59,957 nucleotides of DNA, filler included, from Jimgerdemannia flammicorona (GCA_003990765.1; 3 parts of 3 records of this genome joined end to end with filler, not necessarily neighbours in it); one strand, 5' to 3'. Shown: positions 11,811 through 54,149, counted from the first letter of the whole stretch. Notes: generated from the sequence alone by a model not told the origin. Numbers and translations: made by a program.

Positions 11811-11811
11811 A

Positions 11812-12930: not shown

Positions 12931-12939
12931 GAACCACTG

Positions 12940-13919: not shown

Positions 13920-14108
13920 GTACTAGAGAAAAGTTTGGTCTTGTAGATATCTGACTATCTAGTATTACTGGACATAAGTGATCTTTTATACTAAATTCTA
14001 GACTACTAGTAATGAGTAAATAGCTACATCTTTCTCCAGTAACATTCAGGTTACACAACCCTTTGGCAATACTTTCGACACAGTTTCTGGAGAAAAGCTA
14101 CTAGTATC

Positions 14109-16137: not shown

Positions 16138-16167
16138 GGATTGATCGAGAACAAACCATATTTTATT

Positions 16168-19100
16168 ATGAATAGTACAACCAACATTTTTTCTTTGAAC
16201 GTGAATGGGCTTAGGGGTGCAGCTAGATGCAGGAACATTTTTCTTTGGTTGAAGAGATTGGAGGCCGATCTCTTCCTCTTGCAGGATATCAGGTGCGAGG
16301 ATGATGCTGATAGGATGGAATGGACTAAGGAATGGGGTAGCATGGCGATTTGGAACAGCAAGATTGGGATTCTGGTTCAGAAAGGCAGAGGGGAGATAAA
16401 GGATGTGAGGAGCTGGGGGGAGAGACTGGTCTGGGGGGAGTGGATTCGAGCAGGTTGGGAGCCGGTCACAGTTGGCTCCTGTTACTGCCCTGCGGTGCAG
16501 GGGGAGCGTGTGGAATGGGTGAAAGGGCTACTGGAGAGTGGGATCCTTGCTGAAGCTGGGTTGGATATGCTTGGAGGAGATTTCAATATGGTTCGGGATG
16601 TATGACTGGATAGAACTGATGAAGGACGGGGTGCAGAGAGCAGGAGTGGGGGGTTAGCGATGTGGGAGGAGGTTGAAAGGCTAGGAGCACTGGTGGATGC
16701 TGGTAGGGAGCACTGGGGGGACAGGAGAGTATATATGCATTGGGCTGGAGATCTGGGGACAAGGATTGACTGGATTCTGATGGCCGACTGTTGGGGCCAT
16801 GATGTCTGGAAGATGTTAGAGGTTGAATGGTGCCTGTGGTCGGATCACTGAGGTCTCTTGGGACAGGGGTTTTTTGGGAGAAGTAGAGATGGGCCTGGAC
16901 ATTGGCGCCTGAACTCCTCCTTGTTGGATGATGAGGTCCGGTGGGAGGAGTGGGCGAACAACATTCAGCTAAAGGTGGCGAATTGGTGGCAGGAAGGGGC
17001 AGTGATTGGGGTTCGGTGGATGAGGATGAAAGAGATGGCCAGGATGTATTGGAGCAAGGTTAGCAGAGTGGCTGGGAAGCAGTGAAGGCAGAAAGTACAT
17101 TGGGCTTCTACTAGGTTGGCTAGGCTCCTGGAGGAATGGGTGAGACTGGCTGCAGTGGAGAGAGAAGAGGATTGGAGAATTACGAGGGTGAGGATGGAGG
17201 TTGGGGAACTGCAACAGATGCTGCGGGAAGAGGAAGAGTCAAGGGTGCGAGGCCTGGTGGCTCGGCTTCGTTGGCAGGGGGTGGAGGAGGGGGAGAGGCC
17301 TTCCAAGTTTCTCACAAGGACACTTCGGGCGAGAAGGGTACAGCAGTGGTGGGAAGGGGTACTTGACTCAGATGATGTACTAGTGCATGGTGTACAGGAC
17401 ATCCTTGGAATGCTGAAGGCACGATGGAGTGGATTGTGGAGTGAGGAGGAGGGTGGGGCAGATGCTACAGCCATTGACCAAACATTAGAAGATTGGCACC
17501 CACCGCAAGCTGAGGAACTAGGTGATCTGGTGATGCCAGTAAAGGAGGACAAGATCCACCAGGTTCTTGCCGCGACAGCCTCAGGTATGGCGCCTGGGGA
17601 GGATGGCCTCCCCTGGGATTTCTGGAAGCGAATGGTTGGAGTCCCGGGTATATTGGGGGAGTTGACAGCACTGTGTGACTCTATATTGCAGTCAGGGAGA
17701 TGGGTGGGGGAGCAAGACCTTGGCCTGGTAACACTGCTCTATAAGAACAAGGGAAGGCGAGAGGATTGGAGGAACTGGCGGCCGATAATGCTGTTAGATA
17801 TGGATAGGAAGTTGGTGACTAAGGTGGTGGTAGCAAGGCTATAGAAGGTGGCCCAGCAGATTGTGGGTGTTGAACAGAGGGGCTTTATCGGGGGTCGGCT
17901 CATTAGAGATGGCATGGCCTGGGTGCATGGAGTTATTGAAGGTGCTCGAGCCTGTGGACTAGATGGGCATCTTGTCTTCTTGGATCAGGAGAAGGCTTAT
18001 GACCAGGTACGGCGGGTCTGGCTGGCGAAAGTATTGGATAGAATTGGAGTTCCGGCCTCATTTCGGTCGGCAATGGTCAGCCTACTAGAAAGGAGTAGGG
18101 CTGCGCTGATGTGCAATGAACATCGAGGGTTGGCTTTCCCTCTGGGCAGGGGGGTGCCCCAGGGGGACCCACTGTCCCCCATTTTGTATGCTCTTTCTTT
18201 GGAACCTCTCATAGACAGGATTCAGTGGAGGATTGTAGGGCTATCTATCTATGGAGTTGGCTGGAAGGTTGGAGCCTTTGCGAACAACATAGTGGTTGGT
18301 TTGGGGGTGACTGCGGATGTCGAAGAGCTCCAGAAGACAGTGGAGTGGTATGAGGCAAACTCTGGGGCAAAGCTGAATTGGTACAAGTGTGAGACAATAG
18401 TGCTGGGCAATGGCTTAGTGGGTGGGGAAGTTATTGAAACAATTGTCCCCACTGGAGAGGCAGTGCGGTACTTGGGCATCTATCTGTTGGTCTATGGGTC
18501 TGTTTTGCCCAGGCTGTAGTGGGAGCAGAGGATTGGAATTTGGGAGGAAGACCTGCGGGGTTGGGGAGGTAGACACTTCTCTCTGGCAGGAAGGATCTCG
18601 ATTTTGAATGTTTACTGGCTGCCGAAGCTGTAGTATTTGGCCTATCATCTGGACTTCCCAGCCTGGGTGGTGAAGAGATTGGTGAAGGTGGCCAAGGGAT
18701 GGATTTGGGCTGACAGACGGAGTCAGATTGGTTGGGAGACTCTGTCCCTACCAGTGACAAGAGGTGGTCTTGGGCTGGTGGACTTCCCCAAAAGACTACA
18801 CTGCTTGCGGGCGTAGTGGCTGAGGAGGGCGGTGGAGTTGCATGGAGGGGGCTGGGTCCCCTTGCTGCAGAAGATATGGGAGGGGAGGACATCACCTAGA
18901 GGCTTGACTGGCGATCTTCTTTCATTGGTTGGGCTTCAGAATACTGCACAACTGAGATATAAAGGCTTCTGGTGGGGTATAGCTGAGGGGGCACACCGCA
19001 TTGGTATTTGCTGGTGAGGGGATGAGGGGGAGAGGGCTTGGGGTCCGGCAATGTGGAGGTGGGATTGTATTCTTCTGGGGGGGCATACCTTTACTGGAGT

Positions 19101-19826
19101 TCAACATTAGTAATGGCATCGAATGCCAAAGGGAACCAGGCCAGGATCTGTGGCCTAGCGGTTGGCAAGGAGTTGGAATTGGTGAGGAGTGGGACTGGTA
19201 TGGGGTTTGGACCTGGAGTGCCACGGTGAAAAATTGGATGCCGCCGAAGTACTGGATAGTCTGGTGGCATGTGCTGAGGAGGAATGTGATGCTTAACTTC
19301 TGCTCAAGACACCTTGTGATCAGAGGCTGCTTTGACTGCGAGGAATGCCATAATGTAGGGCAGGAAGGGGGATTGGTACAGACGCCAGAACATTGGCTTG
19401 GGGAGTGTGAGGTGTTGGGAGACTTTTGGCAGGCCATTGGGGACCGCTTGGGGGTAAGGCGTAGGGGTGATGATATACGGGGGAGGTGGGAGGACCTGAG
19501 GGATCGATTGATAGGAGGGGTAGGGGAAGAGTGGATTACATTAGGCTGGGGCATTGGCTATTTGGGTTGGGCTGGCCGGACACTGGCTATTTGTATTTGA
19601 GGAGGAGAAGTGACAGAGCTTGGGGAGCAGGTTAGCAAGGTGGCAGTTCCTTATAGAGGATATCTTGACGGGATGGTGGCTTGGCTGGGGGCTGCAGGGG
19701 GGTCGGAGGTGCCGCTTAGTGGTGAAAATCTGTGATCAGAGTGGTGGGAGAGTTGGAGTTGTTGGTGAGAGAGTGGTCTTTATATGTGAGGAGGTAGGGT
19801 GGGGCCCCCTGATGGGGATTGGTTAG
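16168..19826 (+). pseudogene. LINE ORF2: APE endonuclease, reverse transcriptase and C-terminal Cys/His motif
   Basis: SLNVNGL, GGDFN, RIDWIL, SDH (APE); APGEDGLP, NWRPIMLL, DQEKAYD, GVPQGDPLSP, FANNI (from FADDI), YLGI (RT); CFDC...TPEHWLGEC. In-frame stops are consistent with CGA>TGA, CAG>TAG and TGG>TAG. Confidence 0.95.
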
Positions 19827-19885
19827 TGGGTGGTTATATTGTATACTTATTTATAGACTGGTAATAAAGACGGAGTCCAAGAGAC

Positions 19886-19922
<37 letters not shown>

Positions 19923-20022
19923 NNNNNNNNNNNNNNNNNNNNNNNNNNNNNNNNNNNNNNNNNNNNTTAATTAATTAANNNNNNNNNNNNNNNNNNNNNN
20001 NNNNNNNNNNNNNNNNNNNNNN
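19923..20022. other. Artificial contig-joining linker
   Basis: 44 N + TTAATTAATTAA (stops in all six frames) + 44 N. Confidence 0.97.
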
Positions 20023-20942
20023 TGATATTAACCAAATCAGTTTTTGTTATTCTATAAATATTTTGTAATTGATTTGAGATCAGTTGGGTAGTAATATTAT
20101 ATATTTTGTATATATTCTAAATATACTTATTTATCTAAGATAAGGTAATACCAATTGGACTAGTTTAACAATAGCTTACTCTCATCTTAAATCTATTTCT
20201 TCTTGTCTCTGTTTATATTTATCTCAGTGTAAGACTTTTTCAAAAATATGGTAATTTTTGAGTATATCTTCAGCAGTGGTATTGGTGATCTAGAGGTATA
20301 AATCTTTATATAATATAATAGATTCTGAAGATTGTACTATAACTACTTCTTGGGCTTTGTATAGAACTGTACTGATTTGTTTAGGTATTTTAATATATAT
20401 CTTTGGCTTTCTTTGAGACTTATTCAATATCCTCTTCAGTTTTTTATTTAATTGTTTTTTGACCTTACTGTAGAGCAGTAGATACTTTTGAAGCTTTCTT
20501 CCAGACTTATTGATTGTAGTATATTTCAGCATTTTGTATGGCACTAGCTTTGGCTTTTTACTTTATCTAAGTATATTCATCATCATCAGAAGTATTCTCA
20601 TTATTGGCTGAAGATAGTGAAGGAGTGACTCCAGTTTTTGATATATAAAATATTTCTTCATTAAGGGTAATTTACACTTCTTTTAATATTGATTTGATAA
20701 GGAAAGTTTTTATTTTATAAATATGGTTTAGAATTTTAGATAAAAGTTTGAATCAGATATATGGAATGCTCATCTTTTGGTTATTGATAATAATTGTTAA
20801 GTTTTATCTATTTAGTTATCTTTTATAAACTCTTAATTATAAGTAATCTCAGCCATATTAATCAGGACTTCAGCCAAGGTTTCACTATCACAGTAAAGGT
20901 TTTACTATCATAGTAACTTTAGATAAATACTCTAACTCTTAT

Positions 20943-21065
20943 AGCAGACCAAATCAAAGCAGTAAATCAGATCAAATTAAAGCAGTAAATTAGACTAAAC
21001 TAAAGCAGTGAATCAGACCAAACCAAAGTAATAAATCAGACCAAACTGAAGTAGTGAAGCAGACT
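20943..21065. repeat. ~23-bp tandem repeat
   Basis: CAGACCAAA(T/C)(C/T)AAAGCAGT(A/G)AAT, 5-6 copies. Confidence 0.75.
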
Positions 21066-21974
21066 TAATAGTCACTTTTCTATATATATATCACTCTTCT
21101 ATACCCTCTTCTTATTTTATAATACTAATTTTCCACAACCTTTTTTATAATATTTCTATCTGTACCACTAGATCTATATCTGATATATATTATATATATA
21201 TATATTGAAATAAATATATATATTATTATAATACTAATTATTTATCATTCTATAGATTTTTATAAAATATTAAAAGTAGTTATAGAATATTTTAGAGGAA
21301 AATATTCAAAGGATCTTCATTACTATTAAATAATACATTTTCTTACTATAAATTTAAATAGTGAGAAGTATAAATCTGCTATTAAATAGTATATTTATAT
21401 CATTTATTCTCAATAGATTTTTGAGTATCTTGAGTAAAAAAAGATATATATTATTTTTATAAAATAAAACTAGTATAATTTCTTATTATTAATATTAATT
21501 TTTAGATATTATCAGTAATTATATTTCTATCACTATATGTCTGTATGTATATTTTATAATATTATTAATAATAATCATATTAGAATTATAACCAATATAA
21601 TTTTTATTTTTTAAAATACTTAGTAGATATCAAATATATTGATAAATATCTATTACTTTACTATAATATATATATAAATACTCAAAAATCTATAATAACT
21701 AATATAGCAGTTTCTGAAATAATATTTCAGTAAGATAAAAACTTAAGATATTTAAGCAAATATATCTAGTAAAAAAAAGAATCTAAAATTTATAAAAAAT
21801 TAAAAATAAATTCTATATACATATGAAGCCAGAATATATTATCTTAATTAATTATCATATCATATTAGAAATATAAATACTTTATACAAACTGAGAAATT
21901 TCTCATAAAATATATTTTATATTATAAAATAAAAATAAAAAATTTATACTTATATTGTAATATCTCCTTTATTG

Positions 21975-22385
21975 AAGTCTCTTCTATCATAGTTCTCTCT
22001 ACCAAAGTCTCTGCTGAAGTCTCTGCTGAGGTCTCCTCTGCTGAGTATCTGCCAAGTTCTCCTCTGCTGAGTTTCTTTCTACTAAGTTTCTCTCTACCAA
22101 GTTCTCTTCTGCCAAGTTCTCCTCTATCAAGTTTCTCTCTACTAAGTTTCCCTCTACTAAGTTCTCCTCTATTGAGTTCCTTTTCACTAAGCTCCTCACT
22201 ACTAAGTTCTCTTTACTCTACTAAGTTCTCTCTACTCTACTGAGTTCCCCTCTACTGAGTTCCTCTCTATAAAGTTCCTCTCTACTGAGATCTCCTCTGC
22301 TAAGTTCTTCTCTACTAAAGTTCTCTCTGCTGAATTCTCCTTCTCTCTGTCAAATTTCTCTCTACTAGATTCCCCTATACTGAAT
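21975..22385. repeat. 15-bp minisatellite (reads ENLVE/RNLVE on minus)
   Basis: More than 20 imperfect copies of CTCTACTAAGTTC(C/T)C. Confidence 0.8.
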
Positions 22386-23399
22386 ATTTATAAAATCAAA
22401 CTTCTTAAATACAAGTAGTGAGTTGGAATGTAAAATTGAGTAGTGAGATAGACTGTCCTATTGCTAGAATTGGACTAGACTACTCATACTATATATGTTA
22501 ATTATTAGGCTAAGAATTTTCATTCTTATTTCATTCTGCTAAAGAAGATACATACAAATATATATTATATTTAAAAAAAATATAATAGTAATATTTTTAA
22601 TTTTGTATTAGTTAAAAGATATATTAGTAAATATAATTATAATTTTTAGAGAATTTTTTCTATATACATAATAAAGACTATTTATCAGTGTAAGAAGTAA
22701 TTTCCAAGAGAGTATAAAAAACATTTTTTTGGTAGAACTTTCTCTGTATCCTTAGGTAGAAACAAAGAGAAAGATTATTAAGACTGTTGAAAATTATCTA
22801 AAATTAGCTATATTAGCAATTTATAATACATGCTTTATTATCAATACTAAGAAATAGAGCAACTACATATGTTCAGGTATTCTTATTTTAAATAAGTAGG
22901 GTCAATAACTAGTTATATTTGATAGGGTACCTATAGTGAAAAACATAGATTGTAATACTAAAAAACTTGATAGCAAAATGCTAAATATCTCAATGAAAGA
23001 AGTCAGATAAGATAAATAGTAAGATAGATGGCAAAGATGATAGAGAGGTAGAGAAAGAAGACCAACTAGTCTATATAGATAAAAAAAATACTAAGTAATA
23101 TCTGTTTCTGATCTATATAATTTCTGATTTATTTCTATAATCTGTCTAATTTGTTTCTATAATCTATGCAGTTTCTGAGTTATTTCTAATTTATATATCT
23201 CTAATCTGATTTATATAGTTATATAGTTTCTAATTTTATTTTTGATTCATATATAGTTTTCTCCTCTAATATATTTCCAATTTGTTTCTGATTTACTTGA
23301 TATAAATACAGATTGGGTTTCCTAATCAGATTTCTGATTAGGTTTTGGTTGGATCAGGTTTTTGAGTTGGGTTTCTGATTGAGTCATAGGTCAGGTTTC

Positions 23400-24300
23400 A
23401 GAATGGGTCAGATATATTGTTAGCTCAGCTATTTCTGAATCAGATATATTTCTGGCTTAACTATTTTCTAGATCAGGTATGTTGCTGGCTCAGCTATTTT
23501 CTGGGTTAGATATATTCTCAGCTTGACTATTATCTAGACTAGATATACTGCTAGTTCAGCTATTTTTTGGGTTAGGTTTTGGGTTCACTAGATTGAGTTT
23601 ACATAGTTTTAATCATAGGGTCCTTATCCTTAGATCTTTTCTAATAATTATCTAGAGATAGTATTAAAGAAGTATACTACTCTAGTTATATTCACAGTTT
23701 GTCCTTATTAGCTATATTTTACTCCTGTAGTATTCAGAAGGATTTCTAATCTTATTGTAAATACTTCTAAGTCTTCTTTTTCATTATTGTAGAATTAGAG
23801 ATTCTTGAGCTTAGTTTTGGTTTTAGTAGTGTAGGCAGAGCTATAGAACTATTGGATAATTAGCTCCTTTAGATCTATAGTAGCTGGGTAGACTTTATAG
23901 TTAGAGTGATCATTATCTTCTTTATTTATATTAATTTCAGCACAGGCTTCTCAGATGAGAGGGTATATTGGTAGATTATACTACTACTGAGCAGCTATAT
24001 CTATAAAATAGAAAGTAATTTTCTCTACTTGTGAGTCTATAGTTATATAGAGATCTTCAATCTTATAGTACTTATTATTATTGAGAGTACTATCAGAGTT
24101 CTGATTGTCATTCTATCTATTAGTATAATAATTGGTATCAATTTATCTTATAAATATTATTACTTGGTCTGTCTTACCTTCAAATAATATAAGTTAGAGA
24201 CCTTTTATAGATTTGTTTATTTTGATGCTAAGATAGAGAGCTTGAGCAAGTATGACTACTTGGTCAGTAACTTTTTATCAGCTGATATCATTATATCACT
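23400..24300 (-). mobile_element. Decayed gag related to the element at 40041, with ~33-bp coding tandem repeats at 23400-23580
   Basis: Minus strand reads KTKTKLKNL*FYNNEKEDLEVFTIRLEILLNTTG...YFFNTISR*LLEKI, against AKSRVKLHNLKFDVHGKEEFETFCTKLESLLNTVG...LFDALPEWLTRKI at 40225-40420. Confidence 0.7.
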
Positions 24301-25330
24301 TATATAGTAAGATAGTAGTAGTCTTTCTTCAGATACTATAGTTTAATATATAATTATTTCTTCTATAATATTACTAAAGTGAATGAATTTAGTAACTAGT
24401 TTATCATAGATTGGTGGTTTTGATAGAGTTATTACTAGGTCTTTTGTAGTAATATTTGGTAGACTTGATGTTCTAAATAGTAGATCTATAGTAGTACTAA
24501 AACTATTAGTATTAGGTTCAGATATTTCTTTAACTATTCTTCTAGGTCAAGATAATATAGTAGAGGCTTTTTTAGGTCTAGTAGTTTGTAATCCTCACTG
24601 TTAGATTATTTTTACTTATATGTATATAGAGAACTCAGTAGTAGAGGTGGAATTTTCTTTGATTGGTATAATATCTCTTATAGTTTAGAAAGATCTTAAC
24701 TTTGTAGTAGTAATTGTTAGAGAAAAGATTCAGAAAATATTTACTTACAATTTTGATTGATTCTCTTATATTTCTTATAAAAGTAACTATCAATTAATCT
24801 TTCTAATTTCTTAAGTATAATAAATATGTCAAATACTTCTTAGATGGTTTCATTATTAAGTCTATCAAATTCCTCTTAGCTAGTATGGGTCTTAGTCTAC
24901 TTAGTGATGATTTTGTTAGCTTTATTGACTTAGTTCTGAGAAATAGCCAGAGTAAAGGTATTCTTTAATTATTACTAATAATATTGGTAATATTAACTGA
25001 GTTGTCTATATTTATAGTAGATTTCTTAAGAGAAGTTTGTTTATAAGTAGAGATAACTTCTATGTTATCAAATTATAATAAAACTATATACTAATAGAAT
25101 TAATATTTTGTAGATAATTAAGATTAACTATTAACCCTAAGTTCTGAGTTCTTATAAGGAAGTACTGAGTTCTAATTATCTATTATAATAGTATAGTTCA
25201 AGTATTACTTTTGAGTTTTTATATAGGGAAAGATATATATTATACTTATATCTTAAGTAATTAGACTCAGAATTATTAACAAGTCAGATCTGAGAGTTCT
25301 GTGATAAGAATATTACTTTATTTTTATATA

Positions 25331-26915
25331 TATTATAATAGTGATCTTAGAATGGTGATATTATTATAGGAGACAGTCTTTCCTTACAAGCTATCAGATT
25401 GGAGTATAAGAAGATTATATGGTATAACTCACTCAGGCTACAAGATGAGCAATGATAACAAATCATAAGTCATAATAACCATAAGATAGATATCTTAAGG
25501 AATATAAGAAGAACTAAGAAACTACAGCAGTAACTCAAACAAGACTTACAAAATTCTGAAATAGTTCAAAAGACTCACTATAAATAAATATCTACCACTT
25601 GCCAAACCTCAAGATTCAAGAGCCACTAAGGATTCTTAGTCTAAGAGAAAATGTTCCAAGATATCAGAAGAGCTATAAAGACCTATACTAGAAGAATTCC
25701 TAGTCTTAACCTGAGTACTGGTAACTCTTACTACTTTATCCTCTACCACTATAAAATAGAGACAAGGATTACTATCACTATCAAATACCTCTAGATATAG
25801 CAGAAATATGAAATAGAAAACCTCCTCTGCTAGGAATTCTCTCAAACCAGTCTCCAGGAGATATAAGATACTACTTCTATAGATATATGTAAATTGAGAG
25901 TAGCCAAAAGATCCATCAGATCTTCAGATATATACCTTGGTCAATCCCTAACTTGGAGTATACCAGAGTCTCAGACTTTAAGGAATTATCAGTCCACTAT
26001 ATAGATATACTAGAGGCTATAGTAGCCACAGAAGCCCAATTCATCATTACTCTTAAAAGTAATAAGGTAGAAGAGTTCTGGAATCTCATCCTCCAGAATA
26101 ATCTATATAAGAATTAATCTTAGTATTCTAAGGCCCCAGTATCTAGATTAGACCCTCTCAAGATTCTACTTTTATCTCTTACTTTGTAGAGAAAAATATT
26201 ATAGATTAGAGAGCCTCTGATCTTCTTATTTCTACTACTACTAAATATGATGATATCATTTTGCTAATTGATATGTATAAAATATACAAAATATACAAAA
26301 TAGATAAGATACTTACAGAAATGTTTGCTGACCTTATTTCCTTCAAAGATATCCTGTCTCTGATCTTTAGCCTTGATAATAGTGATAAAGATGAAGTCTC
26401 CAGAATTCTGAACATTTTGCTCTAAGTTCTTTATATAACTGTCAGAAATTATTCTAGTATTCTGATCTTATATAACTATTAGAAATTATTTCAACATTCT
26501 GATCTTATACAACCAATTATACAGATACTCAAATTTGTACTTATAATATGAAGTTTTTTATATTCAAATATCTTACTTAGTTATTGGGATTTATATTTAG
26601 TTTTATAACTTAGCAACTATTGATTGTATTTTATATAAATACTCCTTTTATTTCCTTTGAAATAAAGTCAGTATTCAAATACTTAAGCATTCAAGTATCT
26701 AACTACTCAAGAAGTATAGAAGTTCTAGTTCTCTACTTAATTCTAAACAAGCAAATTCAGAAGACAACAGAATAGTTTAAAGAAGTTTGAGGACTATAAG
26801 ACCTTGAGAAGGTACTCTAATAGAACTTGCTTATAAGAAACTTATAGTTGATCTAAGAGATATATCTTGAAGAAAATCTGATATACTTAGAGAACTTAGT
26901 ATCTACTATGTGACA
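25331..26915 (+). mobile_element. 5' LTR (~1.6 kb) of a Ty3/gypsy element, containing a decayed ORF at ~25650-26425
   Basis: Ends TGTGACA and is followed by a PBS-like TGGTACC at 26919; start TATTATA equals TGTCACA after transitions; colinear with 45245-46403. Confidence 0.75.
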
Positions 26916-29900
26916 ACTTGGTACCTATTGGCTGGTGATATCATTAAGATCTCTCACTTTCAAGCTGAATAACAAATAACTACCACAATAACTACTCTGA
27001 CTACAAGAGTTTCCCCCTGCAAGAATTCAAGATAAGATAAAAATACATTTCCCTATATTCTATGAATTTACTACTAAAGAGTTAATTCTAATCTTTATTG
27101 AAGACTTTGAACAATTTACTGCTGTATGAGCTCTCAATATTGAAGCACAATTGGTCCTTCTATCTGTCAGCCTCAGAGGACCTATCAGAGATAAGTTCAA
27201 TATAGCCACTATTACTGAAAATAGTGCAACCAAACTCACTAATATGAAGAACTTCCTCAGAACTATATACTATACTGAAGAGATCAAGCAAGCTCTCAAA
27301 GATCAACTCAACACTATCTACCAAGAACTCAATAAAGACCCCAACTCATTCTACACCTAAATCTGCTATCAGATTATCTTGGCTAACTATAATAATGCTC
27401 TCAAGGAACAGATAACTGATTCAATCTTCCTAAAAGGAGTCTACTATGAAATCACCCTAGCAATCCAGTCTATTTCAGCTGCTCTGACTCTTGACTAGAA
27501 AGTGGTCTTTGTATAGAGATATTGGACTATCAGACACTCTGCTGAACACTCAATAGAAAGGATAACTGGCATCAAGATGGAGCCAGCAAAGCCAACTAGT
27601 ATCATATCCACTATAGCCATCAATAGATAACTATTCCCACCTACCCCCAAGATGACCAAAGCTGACCCAGTAGAGGAACTTACTCAGTAGTTTGCCAAAA
27701 TAACTGCACACCTTAGTGATATTGTTAGAGAAGTACAAAGTACCAACAGGAGATCAGTGTAGAAGTTTATAGCTACTATAGAGAAATATATCATTAAATA
27801 TTTCAAATATAGAGAAGAAAACCACTATACAAAAAATTATATAATCAAAACAAGACATAGAGCCCAATCAAGTGATATTACTAGAATTAGATAGTAAACC
27901 AATATTGTAGTCATTGAGGAGATTAGTGATACTAATGATGAAGAATACTATAAGAAGTTTAAATTTTACTCTATTACTAAAGGTATCAGAATCCAGTCCA
28001 AGCTCTATGACAAGAAGGATAATAGTAAGTCAGTTAGAAGACCAAAAAGAACTCTAACTATTACTATTCAAAGTAAGACCTAACTTGAGGAGATTGATTA
28101 AGACATAGAGTTAGATGAAGCTACTTACCAAATTATTGAAGGCACTACTTTAGTCTCAGGAGAAAGTGAAAGCAAGAAAGAATAGAAGCTGTATAAGACC
28201 AAGATCTACTAATATAATATCTATAAGGATCTCAAGGAACAGAAGGTCAATGCTACTTTTGGACAACTAGCAGAAGTCCCTGCCTTCAGATAGTAGTTGA
28301 GAGTAGGACTTACAACTACTATCAAAAACTAAGAGTATAAGATCATATGTAGAAGCTCACAATATATAAGAAGATAAATAAGAAGACTCAGATAAAGAAT
28401 CTAAAAATCAGCACAAGACCTCAGCCTATATCTAATATCAGATTGAAGATTGTATCTTTAATGCTATCATTGATACCAGTGCTGGAGAATGTCTTATAAA
28501 TAAGAAGACAATTGACCACCTAGGCTAAGATATTGAAGAATTCACCAAAATGATCTATATTATAGTAGATAATATATAAGCTACCCCTCTAGACAAGATC
28601 TGAGAAGTCTCTATCAAGATTGGAAGAACTACTATCTCAGTAGATATGATCATTATAAGTATCACTAACTATGACATCCTTATTGGTAACCAATGGCTTT
28701 ACAAGACCAAGGCTATTATTGACCTTAATATCTAGAAGATACAGATCAACTATAGAGGAAGAAAGGTATGAGTCTCTATCAATATCTACAAAAAAGTACT
28801 ACTAGACATGGAGGAAGGAGATAAAGAGGATATAGAAGTCTTCATATACTTGGTATATAAGAACAAGAGTAAGACAACCAAGCTTATAGATGAGCAGTAG
28901 TACAATAAGATTATCAATGGCTATACTTCTTAAGAAATATGCCTCTATGGTGCTAGGATGTACTGCTCTAAACACCTAAATGACTACTGGTCCTATATCA
29001 GTGAAGTTAGAAAAATCCATCAATAAAGATATAAGTAAGAAGTAGCTAAAGCAAAAAAGAAAGCTGAAGAAGATGACCAGCCCTCAGAGCTTCAAGTTAA
29101 TAGTAATGATAAAGAGAAATAAGAACCAAACATCACTCTCTAGGTCAAGAAGTTTTACTCCAAAGTCAAGATCTCAGAATATAAGACTGAAGGAGTCATA
29201 GGAATAGACCTTGTCAGTATCTAAGATACTATTCTCAAAACACAGATCACTACTCTACTTGGTACTGAAATTGGAGTCAAGTTACCAGAGAACTATGTCA
29301 GAATTATCAAGACCAGGAGTAGTCTGGCCAAGAGCAAAATCTCAGTTAAAGGAGGAGTCATTGACCCTGATTACATAAGTGAGATTTTTCTTATAGTTAG
29401 AAATCACAACCCCACCACTCCATTCAAAGTCAAGAAGTATGATAGGATTGACCAGATGCTGATCTATAAAGTTAAGAAGCTTAAGATCACTGAAACCATT
29501 AAACTTAACAAGACTAAGAGAGAAGAACAAGACTTTAGATCTACTGGAAGAGAAGTCTATACTGCTACTAAGATTACTGAACTTAAGTATAAGAAAGATA
29601 AGAACTAGAATAAGCATATATATATTATTAGAGAAAACTTTCCCCTAGAAGAACAACTTCTCAAGATTCTATACCAGAATGAAGGAGTACTTGCCACAGA
29701 CTTCAGAGACATCTACAACCAAGAATCTAAGTATGTACTACTATAAAGTTGACACTAGTAATATCAAGCATATCTATCAGAAAGCCAGACCTATACTATC
29801 TGTCTACAGAGAATAGCTGTAAGTAGAACTCAAGGAAATAGAAGAAGCTAGTATCATCAAGCAAGCTATCAGTCTCTGGACTTCACTCATTGTTCTCACC

Positions 29901-30002
29901 CCAAAGAAAGGAAGCAAGCCTAGAGAGTTTGCTCTAAGACTTTATATTAATTATAGAAAGCTCAATACAATCACTAAGAAGGATAGGCAGCTCTTGCTAA
30001 AT
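26916..30002 (+). mobile_element. Decayed Ty3/gypsy internal region: gag - protease - dUTPase - RT start
   Basis: gag LSVSLRGPIRDKF; mutated knuckle YFKYREENHYTKNY (~27795); protease AIIDTSAG (~28465); dUTPase GIDL/RSSLA/GGVIDPDY/RIDQ/FRSTG (29140-29548); RT SLWTSLIVLTPKK...RLYINYRKLN. It is cut at 30003 by another LTR. Confidence 0.9.
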
Positions 30003-30720
30003 TGTAAGAAAGTTACTTATAAAAGTACCATTATGTAGTTCTGGAAGGGTTTTCTAGAAGTTTTGAATATTCTGAAAGACTGTTTTCTTTAGATCAAGAT
30101 TAATTTTATATAGAGTATATTCTCTATGCTTATTGATTTCAAGAGTCTTTTTTTGAACTTATTTTGGATATTCAGGATTTTCTATATTTCAGGAAGTTTA
30201 AGAAACTAAGACCAGCTTAGTTAAATTGGTATATTACTACAGACAATACCCAATTAGGAAATTTTGTGATATGGTTAGGAGTGAGATCTAATAGAGTGTA
30301 GATTTACTTAAGAGTAGTTTGTAGATTATTAAATAGATTTATTTACTATTTATGATATTGCTATACTAGGAGTAGTGTGTAAAGAGATATTGTGGAGAAG
30401 TGTTCAGAAGTTCTTATATATTTGAATTATTCAAGTCTGAGATTCTAAGATCTGGGAGAGGAGATATTTATACTAATAGGAGACTATCTGAACTATGCTA
30501 AATATGGATGTAGTACTTAGTGCCTTACTGAGTCAGAATGCAGTCATATAGTACAAGTGTAAACTGATATATCAAGAGATTATCTGACTACTGAGTTAGT
30601 ATACAGTCATATCATATAAAGCTAATCTAACTATACTAATGACTACTAAGCTATCTATAGATTTAGATACTGTCTGAGTAGTCTTTGATGATATCTCTAT
30701 TGATGATATTATCTCTAATA
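30003..30720 (-). mobile_element. Older LTR fragment homologous to 42940-43670, abutting the truncated RT gene
   Basis: Reverse complement aligns base by base with 42940-43670 and ends in CTTACA; differences are almost all C>T or G>A. Confidence 0.85.
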
Positions 30721-30883
30721 AAGTAGTCATCTATAGTACTCCAATTAAGTCAGAGAAATTTGAACTTAATTTAAATTTACTAACTATATATCTGATTTGA
30801 GCCAGTTGAATTCATTATATGATATAGAAGTACCTAATTGCTAAATATATACAATTACTGGATACATTATATCAGATATATCT

Positions 30884-32105
30884 GAGAAGGCAATAGTGAT
30901 GAGTTGCCCCTTTATTAGTATCAAATTGGTGTCTTCTCCACTTTTTTGTAGTTTTTAGTACCTTTGGCTATGTCTAGAGTATATCTATTTTGGTATAGTA
31001 CCTTCTATCTTTTGCCATTGCCAATAAGGTACTGTCTCAGTATGTTATAGGCTATATAGAAAGTTGGCTGACCTTGGACATCAAGTGCTTAGTATAGGTT
31101 ATCTGCAGATTCTCAGTGTCTATAGTGGGGCTCTCTGGCTTTGGTGAGCTTCTTGGTGAGTACAGTTCTGATATAGGTGACTGCTTTTTGGATATTATCA
31201 GAATGAGAGAGGAGATGGCCATCACAAATAGGAGAAAGAGTGATAACAGTGAACCAATAGGGTGCTAGGCTGAGGGTGGTCATTAGGACTAGAGCAGATA
31301 CTGCTTTAGTAGAGCCTTTTGATTGGTACAGAGTAATTAGGTAATAGGTATCACTCTCAGCTTCTTTTGGCAATTTGGCAAGTTGGACTCCAGTCATTGG
31401 GAGAGATTGGGAGGTCTGAGACTATATCTTAGCTATACTTAACTAGAACTGAGAGTTGATATGGCAATATGATCAAGGCCCATAGACTTGAGTAGTAGGG
31501 TATTGGGGGTCTTCTCTCACCTCATATATAAGTCCTTTACTTATCTCAACTGGGAGAACTAGGCCCTACTCACTATGATATACTTTGATGAGAGTTTTTC
31601 TTTGTCTGTCATTCTCTTTAGGGTGGCAGAGGCTATTCTATTCAGCTTGGGCATGACCTTGTATATACATTGGGGTCTTGGGCATATACTTTTGATTATT
31701 GATATATAGCTAGATTTCTCTTGGTAGTAGGGAGAGCATAGTATATAGAATGAGATATAGACTAACATAGGCCCTACTGTGCCTGGCATAGTCAAACTAC
31801 TGGACAATAGCTAGTCTAGGTTAATGGAGGGGTAGTGCTTGATGGGTGGTGGAGGAGGATTTTTAGCTTATATAGTCTAGGTTCTCTTCTAATAAAAATC
31901 TATAGGACATTGAGTCTATTAAAAAAAATAAAATAAAATAAAATAAAATAAAGAGACAACTCATCACTATTGCCTCTCTCTCACTGTTCTGCAATAGATA
32001 CAGCAAACTAACCCAAGATAGAGGGGATAAAAGTTAGAGAAAGAAGACTTAGAAGATTATCTACCAAAATCTTATAACTAGTATAGTAATAAAAAAAGAA
32101 CTTAT
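30884..32105. mobile_element. Older, rearranged copy of the 1.2-kb poly(A) element
   Basis: 30884-31952 (plus, A-rich tail 31921-31952) and 31953-32105 (minus, 5' part) both align with 54150-55351. Confidence 0.85.
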
Positions 32106-32669
32106 ATATAAATATCTCTTTTATTTACTTAAAATATTTTCTTCAGAAATTTTTTAATAACTACTTAAATCTATAATATCTCTTCAAGCTATTTAGATCT
32201 ACTAAAATCTTCTAAAATTAACTATTTTTTTTTTTTTTATAAAAACTAAAACTATTATATTCTTTAATTTATATTTTTATATAATTATTATTATTAAACT
32301 TCTCTATTATTATTTAAAGTCTTTATTTGATATAGTATAATATAGATACATGTGGGCAGTATATGTACATATCTTATAGTGATAGTTACACACTGTAATT
32401 GTTAGTGACGTAAGCAATTTCGTATAAGTAATAGATCTCTTGAAGTAGAATGGCCCATAAAGTTTCTGCCAGTCTAAATTTGGAAATTTGCCAGTCGCGA
32501 AAAAATAAAATAAAATAACCAAGTCAAGATGCGTCATTCTGAACTCACACCTCTTATCGGGGCGGAGACCAAAAGACATTACATAACCCATCCGTTACAT
32601 AACTCATCAGATCGGATTGAACCTCCATCCAGCATTTCCCTTTCATTCCAATTGTTGCGTCGAGAAAAG

Positions 32670-35095
32670 ATGGCGGAAAAAACACACGACGCAGTCTCAA
32701 TCCAATTGGAAAAGACACACGACGCAGTCTCAATTCAGTTGGAAAAGACCCTCCCGCAACTCGAACACTGGGAGGCAGACGCGGCGACGCCGGCAGCTTG
32801 GGACATCGTCCCCGTAAGATCCGCCCACGACGGATGGCGTGAAACCATGACAGCGTTTTTGCTTGGGCGGGACGGCGGGAGAGACCCCAAGTCGTATGAT
32901 ACTAGGAGTAAGAATTGGATCATGTTCACCATCGCGGCCGCGGGCCTAATGGCGCCCATAACCTCGACAATCTATGTAGGTTTTTCCTTCTGCGGGGAGG
33001 GGGGTAGTGATTGATATTGATGGTTCGTGGTTCATTCCGATCTAAATTCACGATTGTTCGTGTGCTCTTATTCTTCGTAACGCCAAGCTGTCTTCCCTGT
33101 TGACGGTCCAGAAGGACCTCCAAACCTCGGAGATTCTCGTCAACGCCTCACGTAAGTCCCCCTTCTTTTTCAGCATCTTTTATCGTCTCGTTCTCACGCT
33201 AACTCTCAATTTCCAATCTACCACATTCACACGGCATGCAGTTTCTAGCTACACATACATCATGGGCTTCGTGGTTTGCATCCTTATCCTTTCTTCTCTT
33301 TCAGCTTTATGATGGCCATCGTTTGCCGCACAACTCACCGAAGCCTTCCGACCATCCAAACCAGCCACTATTCTGGGCAAGTGTCTCGGACGTGTACGGG
33401 CGTCGTGCAATATACCTTCTATCGACGCTCATCTACGTGGGCGCTTCGGTTGGGTGTGCGCTATCGGGAAATATATACGTTCTGCTGGTATTCCGAGCAC
33501 TACAAGCGGGTGAATACCTTGTACTTGTTTACTTGTTTGACCGCTTCGTGATGGTCCCATTGCCTTGTTACTCAGTTTATTTTTATTGCCACCGTTCTCG
33601 CACTAAAGTCGGCGCATCAGCGGTGATGTCTATGGGTACGTCGACCACGATATATATATATTCATCGTCATTCTGTCTGAAACCATCACCCGTTTGACAC
33701 CTTTGTTAAATTCCACACTCGCGAACAGGTGCAGGGACGATATCCGACATTTACGTGTCTACAGAGCGTGGGACGGCATTCGGGTGGTATAACATGGTAA
33801 GCAGAACCTATCAGTTATTTATGATTGCGAGAGAGTTTCAAAGGGTAATGATTTGACAGCCTCCTAATCCATCTTCGTTTTACTAAGGGACCTATGCTCG
33901 GACCGGCGATAGGTAAGCCTTTAGTTATTCTCTTTTGATATATTAACAAAATCTGAACACATCCACAATAATCATCATTGCAGGTTCAATCATTGGCGGG
34001 TTCATGAACCAGACGTGGGGCTGGCGATCTATCTTTTGGCAAGACATGAACTACTAAAATTATCTCCTTTCCTTGTCGTCGTCGTCAGCCTGCATCCCTC
34101 TACTCTAAATTGACTCCGCCCACTCTCTCTTTCTTAAATCTCCTTACGTAGGTTTCTAGCCGCCTATGGCTTCGCCGTTTTCCTCCTCCTCCTCCTCCGT
34201 CTCCCTGAAACCTGGCGACATAACCCGCTCGGGCCCCAACCAACGCTCAACCTGTTCGCGGCGCTCGCTCTTTTCCGCCACATGGCCATGACCTTGACCG
34301 TGACTTTCGTGGGTGTCACCTTCGGCTGCTATTTCCTCTCCAGCACCACCCTCTCCCGCACTTTTAGCGTGCAGTACGGGCTCGGACCCGCCGCCGTGGG
34401 ACTGTCCTATGTCGCTCCCGCCGTGGGGTCTCTAGTCGGTAGCAGATTCGGTGGCTGGTACAGCGATTACGTCGTGAGGAAGTGGAAGGAGGTGAACAAA
34501 GGCGAAGCACCGCCGGAGGCGAGATTTGCGAGCGTGTGGGTCGGGTGTGCGGTCGTGCCCGTGGGGTTTCTGGCGTACGGATGGCTCGTGCAGAAGGATA
34601 CGCATTTCGCGTGGCCATTGGTCGCGCAGTTTGCCAGTGAGTTTCTTGTAAATGTGATTTGTTTTCGCAGCTTTCCATATTTCAATGCTCAATACCTCGC
34701 TTAGATCTGACCCACCTCCATCACACTACATTCTCTACCCAGTTGGTTTCGCCATGTGCACCGTCTTCGTCAGCATCGGCGCCTATCTCGTCGACTCGAT
34801 CAAGGCGAGGCCAGCCTCGGCTACCGGTAAACCACTATCAACTATTTTTCTCCATTCTACCAACGCGTCTACCTCTTACTTCTACTCAACTGGTCCCCAT
34901 CTCTCAGCATGCCAAAGCCTCCTCCGCGGGCTCGGCTCCGGCACCGGTGCCCTTGTGGCCGCCCAGGCCGAGACGTTGAGTGAAGGCGTGTTGTACAGCA
35001 TCGTGGCCGGAATAACTGCGGTGTCGGTTGGGATGCTGGTGGTGACAGCGAGGTACGGGGAAAAATGGAGGTCGGCGGCATCGGTCACGGTTTGA
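32670..35095 (+). CDS. MFS drug:H+ antiporter (DHA1/QDR-like), multi-exon
   Basis: DPKSY...KNWIMFTIAAAGLMAPITSTIY, PLFWASVSDVYGRRAIYL (motif A), FRALQA, GAGTISDIY..ERGTAFG, GPMLGPAI, GWRSIFW, LPET, PPEARF; many GT-AG introns; TGA at 35093-35095. Confidence 0.92.
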
Positions 35096-39940: not shown

Positions 39941-40040
39941 NNNNNNNNNNNNNNNNNNNNNNNNNNNNNNNNNNNNNNNNNNNNTTAATTAATTAANNNN
40001 NNNNNNNNNNNNNNNNNNNNNNNNNNNNNNNNNNNNNNNN
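39941..40040. other. Artificial contig-joining linker
   Basis: Same N-TTAATTAATTAA-N 100-bp spacer. Confidence 0.97.

Positions 40041-54143: not shown

Positions 54144-54149
<6 letters not shown>

What the first reader, a model, noticed from the sequence alone, without database searches (positions are those of the whole stretch)
20023..32330. Repeat-restricted RIP-like C>T hypermutation that goes beyond CpG
Seen: repeat blocks (9200-12200, 20023-32330, 46400-54100, 55400-59900) have essentially no CpG and a visible excess of TpA, whereas the gene islands and their pseudogenes keep CpG, with abrupt borders near 9180 and 32350. Old versus young copies differ almost only by directional transitions, e.g. 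CATTCCGACTCAGCAAGG..GTGCTAC (43115) vs CATTCTGACTCAGTAAGG..GTACTAC (30530, minus). The gag knuckle Cys codons appear as TAT, and TGG/CAG codons as TAG, which CpG deamination alone cannot explain. Established: RIP is characterised in ascomycetes (CpA bias, RID-dependent), with CpG-biased signatures reported in some basidiomycetes. Inference: a homology- or heterochromatin-directed mutator with preference CpG > CpA > CpC/CpT in what looks like a non-Dikarya fungus.
Basis: partly seen in the sequence, partly recalled or inferred. Interest (0 to 1): 0.8.

Follow-up and report, generated by a model that had tools for sequence, protein, structure and literature searches.

The report
Transposon relics stripped of CpG
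In a root-associated early-diverging fungus (Endogonales), old transposon remnants have lost every CG dinucleotide and about half of their CA and CC cytosines through one-directional C-to-T changes while neighbouring genes are untouched, a RIP-like genome-defence scar in a lineage where the papers I could read report none.

Summary
The window is three contigs joined by N-spacers, so 20023 is a contig start and not a biological border.

- **CpG loss.** Five transposon-relic blocks (29,409 bp) hold 0 CpG against about 737 expected. AT-rich non-coding parts of the adjacent gene islands keep CpG at o/e 0.95-1.0. Younger TE copies sit at o/e 0.37-0.40.
- **Direction and context.** Relics differ from younger copies of the same families almost only by C>T/G>A: 468 GC>AT transitions against 27 GC>TA transversions. 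The 3' base sets the rate: CpG all destroyed, CpA 0.49, CpC 0.33, CpT 0.17. There is no 5'-base effect, no CHG effect, and the two strands behave alike.
- **Organism.** An ERG6 exon is 100% identical to a protein annotated Jimgerdemannia flammicorona (Endogonales, Mucoromycotina).

My best reading is a DNA-methyltransferase-type, repeat-restricted cytosine mutator: persistent at CpG, weaker and possibly front-loaded at CpA and CpC. Whether it is triggered by homology (true RIP) or by methylated heterochromatin is unresolved. Passages I read say RIP signatures were not detected in Mucoromycotina. I rate it a new variant of a known kind, interest about 0.65.

The parts
1..9158 (.). Gene island 1: tRNA-Leu 2060-2144 (-), NDUFS7 2410-3021 (-), short-chain dehydrogenase ORF 7393-8277 (+). 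CpG o/e about 1.
9159..12210 (-). CpG-free relic block: 0 CpG against 80 expected. A degenerate LINE copy homologous to 17422-19776.
12211..12746 (.). Foldback MITE-like insertion with long terminal inverted repeats. It keeps 22 CpG (o/e 1.37) inside the relic block.
12747..14075 (.). CpG-free relic block: 0 CpG against 47 expected.
14076..19922 (+). Younger LINE-like element: RVT_1 at 17845-18519, poly(A) at the contig end. GC 0.55, CpG o/e 0.39, TpG/CpA 1.24. Reference copy for pairs D and E.
19923..20022 (.). Artificial spacer N44-TTAATTAATTAA-N44 between contig 1 and contig 2.
20023..32408 (.). The finding's block: 12,386 bp, GC 0.29, 0 CpG against about 265 expected, TpA o/e 1.13. It is a mosaic of retrotransposon relics.
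25320..26351 (+). Relic copy O1, homologous to younger 45254-45952 (pair C) and to relic 51423-52342 (-).
27799..27840 (+). Gag zinc-knuckle relic YFKYREENHYTKNY. All three Cys codons read TAT.
28424..28747 (+). Aspartyl-protease relic (RVP_2, E 1.8e-5), read through stops as X.
29165..29548 (+). dUTPase relic (PF00692, E 3.4e-19), read through stops as X.
30002..30724 (-). Relic copy homologous to younger 42933-43671 (pair B: 83% identity, 104 transitions, 18 transversions).
30884..31957 (-). Relic copy homologous to younger 54143-55227 (pair A: 78% identity, 209 transitions, 26 transversions).
32409..39940 (.). Gene island 2: MFS transporter pieces 33203-34704 (+), ERG6 37772-39467 (+). CpG o/e 1.0-1.09.
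39941..40040 (.). Artificial spacer between contig 2 and contig 3.
40041..46388 (.). Younger TE composite: gypsy gag (zf-CCHC)-dUTPase 40425-41087 and protease 41274-42194 (+); 42933-43671; a 493-aa ORF 43746-45227 (-); 45254-45952. CpG o/e 0.40, TpG/CpA 1.24.
46389..54142 (.). CpG-free relic block, including relic O2 at 51423-52342 (-).
54143..55337 (+). Younger repeat copy, reference of pair A. CpG o/e 0.37 over 54411-55337.
55338..59957 (.). CpG-free relic block: 0 CpG against 131 expected. LINE relic at 56228-58584, homologous to 13797-16140 (pair D).

Best explanation
Transposon DNA in this Endogonales genome is subject to a repeat-restricted cytosine-to-thymine mutator that works through cytosine-5 methylation.

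The proposed steps are inferred, not shown:
1. TE chromatin is methylated almost completely at CpG by maintenance enzymes of the DNMT1/DNMT5 type.
2. It is methylated more weakly at CpA, then CpC, then CpT, by a DNMT1-superfamily enzyme of the Dim-2 kind.
3. The methylated cytosines are converted to thymine.
4. The CpG component persists for as long as the relic exists, and removes even CpGs re-created by later mutation.
5. The CpA/CpC component seems to act mainly early in a copy's life.
6. Genes and their AT-rich flanks are not methylated and are spared.

What is shown: the pattern, its direction, its 3'-neighbour rule, its restriction to repeats, and the lineage.
For: - **Total CpG loss.** 0 CpG in 29,409 bp against about 737 expected, with one-base-sharp borders to CpG-normal DNA.
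- **Persistence.** Applying the measured non-C>T substitution rates to the relic blocks re-creates on average 29-117 CpGs, and at least 13 in every one of 200 runs. None is present. CpG removal therefore continued after the copies had diverged; the two relic copies O1 and O2 are only 62% identical.
- **Deamination-type spectrum (pairs A-C pooled).** GC>AT transitions 468 of 1,356 GC sites; AT>GC transitions 105 of 1,604 AT sites; GC>TA transversions 27; GC>CG 11.
- **The 3' neighbour decides.** CpG 31/31 strict, CpA 0.49, CpC 0.33, CpT 0.17. The 5' base has little effect (ACA .61, GCA .56, CCA .46, TCA .39). CHG 0.30 against CHH 0.33. Top and bottom strands have similar rates. That DNMT-type enzymes read the 3' base and AID/APOBEC enzymes the 5' base is recalled knowledge.
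- **An earlier stage in younger copies.** CpG o/e 0.37-0.40, TpG/CpA excess 1.24-1.34, TpA not raised. A soil-metagenome relative, L001, is intermediate at CpG o/e 0.10.
- **Other copies in public runs.** Across runs X1, X2 and X5 they differ from the window by transitions to transversions of about 6-7:1. Only 40 rows were shown, with a further 1,457 not shown. Of those 40, 22 are sites where the window has T/A and the other copies C/G: CpA 10, CpC 7, CpG 4, CpT 1.
- **No strand-coherent tracts** of C>T against G>A in any of the five pairs.
- **Enzymes in the subphylum.** Passages of PMC7862722 and PMC13297926 report a DNMT1 and a Dim-2 homologue, with CG methylation above non-CG methylation, in Phycomyces (Mucoromycotina).
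Against: - No methylation data and no DNMT inventory could be obtained for this genome: none is held and no DNMT gene lies in the window.
- Complete CpG loss is far beyond the roughly five-fold depletion usual for methylated genomes (figure from a passage of PMC13297926).
- The CpA and CpC fractions do not grow with background divergence. CpA is 0.47, 0.42, 0.55, 0.50, 0.54 across pairs A-E, while CpT goes 0.12, 0.08, 0.18, 0.34, 0.46 and transversions rise from 0.022 to 0.097 per site. That fits a self-limiting, homology-dependent burst better than clock-like decay.
- The borders are one base sharp, with no gradient into the flanks, which spreading heterochromatin would not obviously produce.
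- All spectra rest on five pairwise alignments and one three-way alignment from three contigs. Pairs D and E are only 55-61% identical.
- The 'young' copies are not true ancestors.
Confidence: 0.45

Rival explanations
1. True RIP-like defence. A homology-triggered, probably premeiotic, DNMT-family (RID-like) enzyme mutates duplicated DNA at CpG, CpA and CpC until the copies have diverged too far to be recognised. Ordinary CpG methylation then finishes off the CpGs.
For: - The CpA/CpC mutated fractions plateau at about 0.42-0.55 whatever the background divergence.
- The CpA-minus-CpT difference is about constant at 0.43-0.53 in pairs A-C, while the ratio falls from 5.7 and 6.4 to 2.9.
- The least-diverged pairs stand at 78-83% identity. 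That this is near where RIP stops recognising repeats is recalled.
- The borders are one base sharp.
- The composite RIP index is above 0 in 37 of 57 relic windows, against 3 of 33 gene-island windows and 1 of 24 young-TE windows.
- Near-exclusive C>T/G>A changes create stops: TGG>TAG 14, TGG>TGA 6, CAG>TAG 5.
Against: - Present-day multi-copy families keep long ORFs and show no TpA excess. Hundreds of contigs 90-99% alike are laid on them.
- A passage of PMC10386755 reports the species as about 77% repeats.
- No strand-coherent mutation tracts.
- CpG, not CpA, is the first target.
- CpG removal went on long after homology was lost.
- The confidence intervals of the ratio test overlap, and pairs D and E are poorly aligned.
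- RID is described as restricted to Ascomycota (abstract of PMC4352252).
Confidence: 0.3
2. Nothing beyond CpG is targeted. Repeats lose CpG through ordinary methyl-CpG decay, and the rest is neutral relaxation of GC-rich transposons towards an AT-rich equilibrium under the genome's ordinary mutation bias.
For: - Non-coding windows of the gene islands are also AT-rich (GC 0.35), not far from the relics at 0.29-0.39.
- C>T is the commonest spontaneous change in most organisms (recalled).
- No single-copy neutral control is available in the window.
- The pair window-versus-L001 shows an ordinary ratio: 123 transitions to 63 transversions.
Against: - GC>AT transitions outnumber GC>TA transversions 468:27.
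- CpA and CpC mutate 5.0 and 2.6 times more often (odds ratios) than CpT (p=2e-23 and 7e-8).
- The measured rates imply an equilibrium GC near 0.15 (my arithmetic from the rates), far below the 0.35 of AT-rich gene-island DNA.
- That gene-island DNA shows TpA o/e 0.63-0.89 and TpG/CpA 1.08-1.14, so no CpA>TpA flux, against 1.02-1.20 and 0.79-0.95 in the relics.
Confidence: 0.15
3. Cytidine-deaminase (AID/APOBEC-like) editing of retroelement cDNA, or of exposed single-stranded DNA, before or after integration.
For: The relics are retroelements and the changes are pure C>T/G>A.
Against: - Both strands are hit at similar rates: pair A CpA 0.44 top, 0.52 bottom; pair D 0.46 and 0.45.
- No 5'-neighbour rule.
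- No strand tracts.
- CpGs re-created after integration are also gone.
- The CpG-free state covers whole mosaics of different elements.
Confidence: 0.03

Closest known systems
Repeat-induced point mutation (RIP) of Neurospora crassa and other Pezizomycotina (RID-dependent)
   Same: Repeat-restricted, near-exclusive C:G>T:A transitions. Stops are created from TGG, CAG and CAA codons. The result is AT-rich relic blocks beside intact genes, with a positive composite RIP index in most relic windows.
   Different: The lineage is Mucoromycotina. CpG is the first target, followed by CpA, CpC and CpT, rather than CpA first. No strand tracts are seen. Current multi-copy families are not inactivated. 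Dependence on homology, meiosis and RID is untested.
RIP-like TpCpG hypermutation in Pucciniomycotina (Horns et al. 2012, PMC3318451, abstract read)
   Same: C>T hypermutation of TE copies outside the Ascomycota, centred on CpG.
   Different: No 5'-T requirement here: TCG 0.67, ACG 0.75, CCG 0.62, GCG 0.65. There is also a strong additional component at CpA and CpC.
Dim2-dependent C>T at CpA during mitosis in Zymoseptoria tritici (PMC8016269, abstract read)
   Same: A DNA-methyltransferase-dependent, TE-focused mutator acting at non-CpG sites without any need for meiosis. This is the closest mechanistic analogue of my best explanation.
   Different: That system is in an ascomycete, is CpA-specific and is experimentally shown. 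Here CpG dominates, CpC is also hit, and nothing has been tested.
Methyl-CpG decay of transposons in CG-methylating fungi (Rhizophagus irregularis, PMC8647823 passages; Basidiomycota, PMC13297926 passages)
   Same: The younger TE copies show exactly this: CpG o/e 0.37-0.40 with TpG/CpA excess, beside unmethylated-looking genes.
   Different: The relics show complete CpG loss (0 of about 737 expected) plus loss of a third to a half of CpA and CpC cytosines, which CpG decay cannot produce.
Composite-RIP-index signal in Entomophthorales (PMC11105155, passages read)
   Same: A proposal that RIP may act outside Dikarya in a TE-inflated zygomycete genome.
   Different: That work concerns another phylum (Zoopagomycota) and rests on dinucleotide indices only, with caveats stated by its authors. 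Here the evidence is alignment-based, polarised and context-resolved, but comes from three contigs.

Membership tests
Canonical RIP (RID-dependent, Pezizomycotina) | C:G>T:A transitions dominate the differences between repeat copies | tested here: met
   468 GC>AT transitions against 105 AT>GC transitions and 104 transversions of all kinds, pairs A-C.
Canonical RIP (RID-dependent, Pezizomycotina) | CpA is the preferred target dinucleotide | tested here: not met
   CpG comes first (31/31 strict; 0 CpG left). CpA is second at 0.49, then CpC 0.33 and CpT 0.17.
Canonical RIP (RID-dependent, Pezizomycotina) | Positive composite RIP index (TpA/ApT minus (CpA+TpG)/(ApC+GpT) above 0) | tested here: met
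   37 of 57 relic 500-bp windows are above 0 (median 0.08), against 3 of 33 gene-island and 1 of 24 young-TE windows. The signal is weak in size.
Canonical RIP (RID-dependent, Pezizomycotina) | Triggered by sequence duplication, before meiosis | not testable with these tools
   Only indirect hints exist: the plateau of the CpA/CpC fractions speaks for it; intact multi-copy young families speak against.
Canonical RIP (RID-dependent, Pezizomycotina) | RID/Masc1-type DNMT present in the genome | not testable with these tools
   No genome is held for this window and no DNMT gene lies in the window (one search covered 22 ORFs).
Canonical RIP (RID-dependent, Pezizomycotina) | Strand-coherent runs of C>T or G>A (feature recalled) | tested here: not met
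   The runs test shows no deficit of runs in any of pairs A-E: z = -0.49, 0.05, 2.43, 1.58, 2.09. Many rounds of mutation would erase such tracts, so this is weak evidence.
Methyl-CpG deamination decay | CpG deficit matched by TpG/CpA excess, confined to methylated compartments | tested here: met
   Young TEs have CpG o/e 0.37-0.40 and TpG/CpA 1.24-1.34. Gene islands have CpG o/e 0.95-1.09.
Methyl-CpG deamination decay | Mutation excess limited to CpG | tested here: not met
   CpA and CpC exceed CpT with odds ratios 5.0 and 2.6. Relics have TpA o/e 1.02-1.20 and TpG/CpA below 1.
Methyl-CpG deamination decay | 5-methylcytosine present on the affected DNA | not testable with these tools
   No bisulfite or nanopore signal data could be reached.
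Pucciniomycotina TpCpG hypermutation | 5' T preference at the mutated CpG | tested here: not met
   TCG 20/30, ACG 15/20, CCG 16/26, GCG 15/23.
AID/APOBEC-type editing | 5'-neighbour specificity and strand asymmetry (features recalled) | tested here: not met
   The 5' base has little effect and the two strands have similar rates. No strand tracts.
Plant-type CHG (chromomethylase) methylation decay | CHG mutated more than CHH | tested here: not met
   CHG 72/242 = 0.30; CHH 297/904 = 0.33.

The most novel reading that the evidence does not exclude
Endogonales possess a genuine RIP-type genome defence: a homology-triggered, DNMT-family mutator with specificity CpG > CpA > CpC. It acts in a burst on new repeat copies. 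This would place RIP-like defence outside Dikarya, either as an older origin or as an independent invention, in a fungus whose genome is nevertheless about three-quarters repeats.
Probability: 0.3. Interest if true: 0.85.

Novelty: new variant of a known kind. Interest (0 to 1): 0.65.

Why it matters
RIP and RIP-like hypermutation are treated as a trait of Dikarya, and mostly of Ascomycota.

- A 2025 kingdom-wide screen found repeat-enriched mutation signatures only in ascomycete classes (PMC12543289, abstract and section 9 read).
- A passage of PMC8647823 states that RIP signatures were not detected in Mucoromycotina.

An alignment-based, polarised, context-resolved C>T signature in an Endogonales genome challenges that picture. 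It suggests that k-mer or index screens miss CpG-led variants.

It also makes a long-standing question testable. Endogonales have very large, repeat-rich genomes, and the data here offer relics, intermediate copies and active copies of the same families side by side. One can ask whether DNMT-driven mutagenesis of repeats is ancestral to terrestrial fungi, and whether it needs homology sensing or only methylated chromatin.

In practice, relics this diverged are invisible to ordinary nucleotide searches. Only 12 self-hits were found with blastn, against 212 with a purine/pyrimidine alphabet, part of which is noise. Repeat content in such genomes is therefore probably underestimated.

Tried and rejected
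- **Whole-genome search.** No genome is held for the window, so a DNMT/RID inventory and family-wide consensus spectra could not be made.
- **Earlier notes.** Four look-ups of the scan's earlier notes gave nothing on this genome or topic.
- **NDUFS7 for taxonomy.** The PDB hits were too conserved to help. The 47-row tree left the window protein in an unresolved polytomy with Mucorales, Calcarisporiella and ascomycetes. I rejected it as evidence; the ERG6 exon gave the placement.
- **DNA alignment of the gypsy relic to the younger gypsy.** Aligning 26500-29950 to 40041-42900 gave only 230 aligned bases at 65% identity. These are different families.
- **Protein alignment of the same two elements.** It could not show which codons became stops.
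- **Metagenome scan for more copies of the protease ORF.** 7 loci were returned and only 1 (L001) was usable, too few for a consensus-polarised spectrum.
- **Cover of the relic blocks by public runs.** X1, X2 and X5 show almost no cover there at 80% likeness. This is not interpretable as silence or absence. X12 gave 1 laid contig.
- **Burst versus clock.** The ratio and difference test on pairs A-C has overlapping confidence intervals. I keep it only as a hint.
- **Papers not held.** The Endogonaceae genome paper and the Gigaspora margarita genome paper, looked up by DOIs I recalled, are not held. What they say about RIP is known to me only through a citing passage.
- **Literature searches.** Searches for RIP or methylation in Endogonales or Mucoromycota found no report of this signature. 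Subscription papers and supplements were not seen.

Full report
**What the window is**

The 59,957 bases are three separate contigs: 1-19922, 20023-39940 and 40041-59957. They are joined by artificial spacers of the form N44-TTAATTAATTAA-N44. The piece lengths of 19,922 and 19,918 bases equal the contig lengths on record for the two window proteins I searched with. The start of the finding, 20023, is therefore a contig end and not a biological border. The 'old' and 'young' repeat copies compared below lie partly on different contigs, which I take to come from one assembly.

**Organism**

The ERG6 exon at 38544-39068 is 100% identical, over the 71% of the query that aligns, to an NCBI protein named 'Delta(24)-sterol C-methyltransferase, partial [Jimgerdemannia flammicorona]' (P0121). 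Its first 135 residues map at 100% identity to 37772-38176.

The next named hits are all Mucoromycotina at 74-80% identity. Glomeromycotina, chytrids and Dikarya score about 55-68%. NDUFS7 gave no resolved placement. The organism is thus an Endogonales fungus (Mucoromycotina), a non-Dikarya lineage. Passages I read describe it as root-associated, with a genome of about 240 Mb and more than 77% repeats (PMC10386755, PMC7928374).

**The observation**

The window holds 1,314 CpGs, and five runs hold none:

| Run | Length (bp) |
|---|---|
| 9159-12210 | 3,052 |
| 12747-14075 | 1,329 |
| 20023-32408 | 12,386 |
| 46389-54410 | 8,022 |
| 55338-59957 | 4,620 |

Together they are 29,409 bp with 0 CpG, where base composition predicts about 737.

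The borders that lie inside contigs are one base sharp. CpGs stand at 9148, 9156 and 9158, and then none for 3 kb. After 12.4 kb without one, CpGs resume at 32409 and 32421.

Low GC does not explain this. In the gene islands, the 100-bp windows with GC below 0.40 (mean 0.35) hold 84 CpGs in 2,800 bp. Their CpG o/e is 0.95-1.0, TpA o/e 0.63-0.89 and TpG/CpA 1.08-1.14. The relic blocks have GC 0.29-0.39, TpA o/e 1.02-1.20 and TpG/CpA 0.79-0.95.

A third compartment consists of younger TE segments at 14076-19871, 40041-46388 and 54411-55337. They are strikingly uniform: GC 0.47-0.55, CpG o/e 0.37-0.40, TpG/CpA 1.24-1.34 and TpA 0.66-0.89.

The classical composite RIP index is above 0 in 37 of 57 relic windows, 3 of 33 gene-island windows and 1 of 24 young-TE windows.

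**Relics and younger copies belong to the same families**

Ordinary blastn found 12 self-matches. A purine/pyrimidine alphabet found many more, part of them noise. For example, 30884-31957 (-) against 54143-55227 is 77.5% identical in four letters but 96.4% in two letters.

I aligned five relic/young pairs, A to E:

| Pair | Aligned bases | Identity | Transitions | Transversions | C>T | G>A | T>C | A>G |
|---|---|---|---|---|---|---|---|---|
| A | 1,073 | 78% | 209 | 26 | 107 | 70 | 18 | 14 |
| B | 737 | 83% | 104 | 18 | - | - | - | - |
| C | 1,150 | 72% | 260 | 60 | - | - | - | - |

Pairs D and E are LINE copies at 61% and 55% identity, and I use them with caution.

The spectrum pooled over pairs A-C is as follows:

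| Class | Count |
|---|---|
| GC>AT transitions | 468 of 1,356 GC sites |
| AT>GC transitions | 105 of 1,604 AT sites |
| GC>TA transversions | 27 |
| GC>CG transversions | 11 |
| AT>TA transversions | 52 |
| AT>CG transversions | 14 |

A three-way alignment (young copy, relic O1, relic O2; 583 ungapped columns) polarises the O1-specific changes as C>T 21, G>A 17, T>C 8, A>G 6 and transversions 6.

**Context**

The chance that a young-copy C is T in the relic depends on the 3' base:

| Context | All sites | Only where the neighbour is unchanged |
|---|---|---|
| CpG | 66/99 per cytosine | 31/31 |
| CpA | 197/403 = 0.49 | 177/369 |
| CpC | 120/367 = 0.33 | 99/236 |
| CpT | 71/419 = 0.17 | 48/374 |

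Other context tests:
- The reverse change (young T, relic C) is 0.05-0.08 in every context.
- CpA vs CpT has odds ratio 5.0 (p=2e-23). CpC vs CpT has 2.6 (p=7e-8). CpA vs CpC has 2.0 (p=8e-6).
- The 5' base matters little.
- CHG 0.30 equals CHH 0.33.
- Both strands show similar rates.
- C>T and G>A changes are not clustered in strand tracts in any pair.
- Re-aligning with transitions penalised like transversions gave the same picture: CpA 0.42-0.49, CpC 0.26-0.41, CpT 0.08-0.21.

- The gag zinc-knuckle relic at 27799-27840 reads YFKYREENHYTKNY, with TAT at all three Cys positions.
- In pairs D and E, 22 of 41 TGG codons became TAG, TGA or TAA.
- CAG>TAG occurs 5 times.
- 6 of 15 Cys codons became TAT or TAC.

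**Evidence from outside the window**

I laid contigs of four public runs on contig 3 at 80% likeness or more.
- In three of the runs, hundreds of contigs 80-99% alike covered the younger TE parts.
- Their differences from the window are dominated by transitions. X1 shows C>T 174, G>A 124, T>C 91, A>G 81 and 64 transversions. X2 shows 494 transitions to 79 transversions, and X5 shows 954 to 140.
- Only 40 rows were shown, with a further 1,457 not shown.
- Of those 40, 22 are places where the window has T/A and all other copies C/G. Their contexts are CpA 10, CpC 7, CpG 4 and CpT 1.

This is the same hierarchy, polarised independently. The sample is small and consists of the best-supported rows only.

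One soil-metagenome contig, L001, carries a related gypsy copy with CpG o/e 0.10, an intermediate state. That pair shows an ordinary 123 transitions to 63 transversions.

**How it most likely works**

The spectrum is one of cytosine deamination. A rule set by the 3' neighbour, symmetry between strands and restriction to repeats point to a process run through cytosine-5 methyltransferases rather than AID/APOBEC-type deaminases. The enzyme preferences behind that inference are recalled, not tested here.

Two features argue for a persistent, homology-independent component at CpG.
- Applying the measured non-C>T rates to the relic blocks re-creates 29-117 CpGs on average, and at least 13 in every one of 200 runs. 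None exists.
- The relics are now far too diverged for homology sensing: O1 and O2 are 62% identical.

Present multi-copy families are only CpG-depleted and keep ORFs of 415-493 codons. An efficient RIP is therefore not acting on them now.

On the other side, the CpA and CpC fractions do not scale with background divergence across pairs A-E:

| Measure | A | B | C | D | E |
|---|---|---|---|---|---|
| CpA | 0.47 | 0.42 | 0.55 | 0.50 | 0.54 |
| CpT | 0.12 | 0.08 | 0.18 | 0.34 | 0.46 |

Transversions per site rise from 0.022 to 0.097 over the same pairs. This suggests a front-loaded, self-limiting non-CpG component, as in RIP. The sharp borders fit that too. The plateau could also come from imperfect polarity, because the young copies are not ancestors, and from the weak alignments of pairs D and E.

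My weights are:

| Reading | Probability |
|---|---|
| Methylation-dependent deamination in TE chromatin | 0.45 |
| Homology-triggered RIP-type mutator | 0.30 |
| CpG decay plus ordinary AT-biased relaxation | 0.15 |
| Deaminase editing of cDNA | 0.03 |
| Something else | remainder |

The ordinary-decay reading is weakened in three ways:
- the 468:27 transition to transversion ratio at GC sites;
- the context effect;
- the absence of any CpA>TpA signature in AT-rich gene-island DNA.

**Comparison with what is known**

| Known system | How this case compares |
|---|---|
| RIP of Pezizomycotina | Closest in outcome, but the CpA-first rule is not met. RID, homology dependence and meiotic timing are untested. 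|
| Pucciniomycotina TpCpG pattern (PMC3318451, abstract) | Not matched; there is no 5' T preference. |
| Dim2-dependent mitotic C>T at CpA in Zymoseptoria (PMC8016269, abstract) | The nearest mechanistic analogue. |
| Index-based hint of RIP in Entomophthorales (PMC11105155, passages) | Concerns another phylum. |

For Mucoromycotina, a passage of PMC8647823 says RIP signatures were not detected. The 2025 kingdom-wide k-mer screen found repeat-directed signatures only in ascomycete classes (PMC12543289, abstract and section 9). My searches found no report of this signature in Endogonales. The two primary genome papers are not held, and I saw no supplements.

**Verdict**

The trigger and the enzyme remain inferred.

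It is a new variant of a known kind of system. Interest is about 0.65. It is limited by the small sample of three contigs and five copy pairs, and by the lack of methylation and gene-inventory data.

Noticed in passing
window 19923-20022 and 39941-40040: The window is three contigs (19,922, 19,918 and 19,917 bases) joined by N44-TTAATTAATTAA-N44 spacers. Features that touch 19922/20023 or 39940/40041 are contig ends, not biology.
   Followed up: yes
window 12211-12746: A 536-bp foldback, MITE-like element. It has long terminal inverted repeats and CpG-rich subterminal GATTCGAATC-type repeats. It sits inside a CpG-free relic block and keeps 22 CpGs (o/e 1.37). It is either very young or not targeted by the mutator.
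   Followed up: partly
window 40425-42194 versus 28424-29548: Both gypsy-type elements carry a dUTPase, but in different places. The younger element has it between the gag zinc knuckle and the protease; the relic has it after the protease. These are two distinct dUTPase-bearing families.
   Followed up: partly
window 2410-3021 (-), proteins P0001 and P0037: The window's NDUFS7 is only 74% identical to another protein annotated as NADH-ubiquinone oxidoreductase of Jimgerdemannia flammicorona. Either the genome has two divergent copies or the assemblies under that name hold more than one fungus.
   Followed up: no
window 14076-19922: The younger LINE-like element ends in a poly(A) run of about 33 bases exactly at the contig end. 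The assembly probably broke in this repeat.
   Followed up: no
window 6435-6989: A tandem repeat of about 172-175 bp units (about 88% identical) lies inside gene island 1 and keeps CpGs. This short local repeat has not been hypermutated.
   Followed up: no
window 21963-22406 and 23101-23577: Degenerate tandem repeats sit in the most AT-rich part (GC 0.17-0.30) of the focus block. No TE homology was found for 20023-25300.
   Followed up: no
L001 (soil metagenome contig), 1-1049: A related gypsy protease region, 82% identical to window 40976-42018, has CpG o/e 0.10. This is an intermediate stage of CpG loss in an unnamed relative or another copy.
   Followed up: partly
window 42697-46680 and 53985-55976: The younger TE parts are covered at high summed depth by contigs of two runs of the coded organism A and of a soil metagenome. 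The families are abundant or expressed outside this assembly. The kind of the runs (RNA or DNA) is only a guess.
   Followed up: partly
window 2060-2144 (-): A tRNA-Leu (anticodon AAG) gene lies about 270 bp from the stop codon of the NDUFS7 gene, on the same strand.
   Followed up: no
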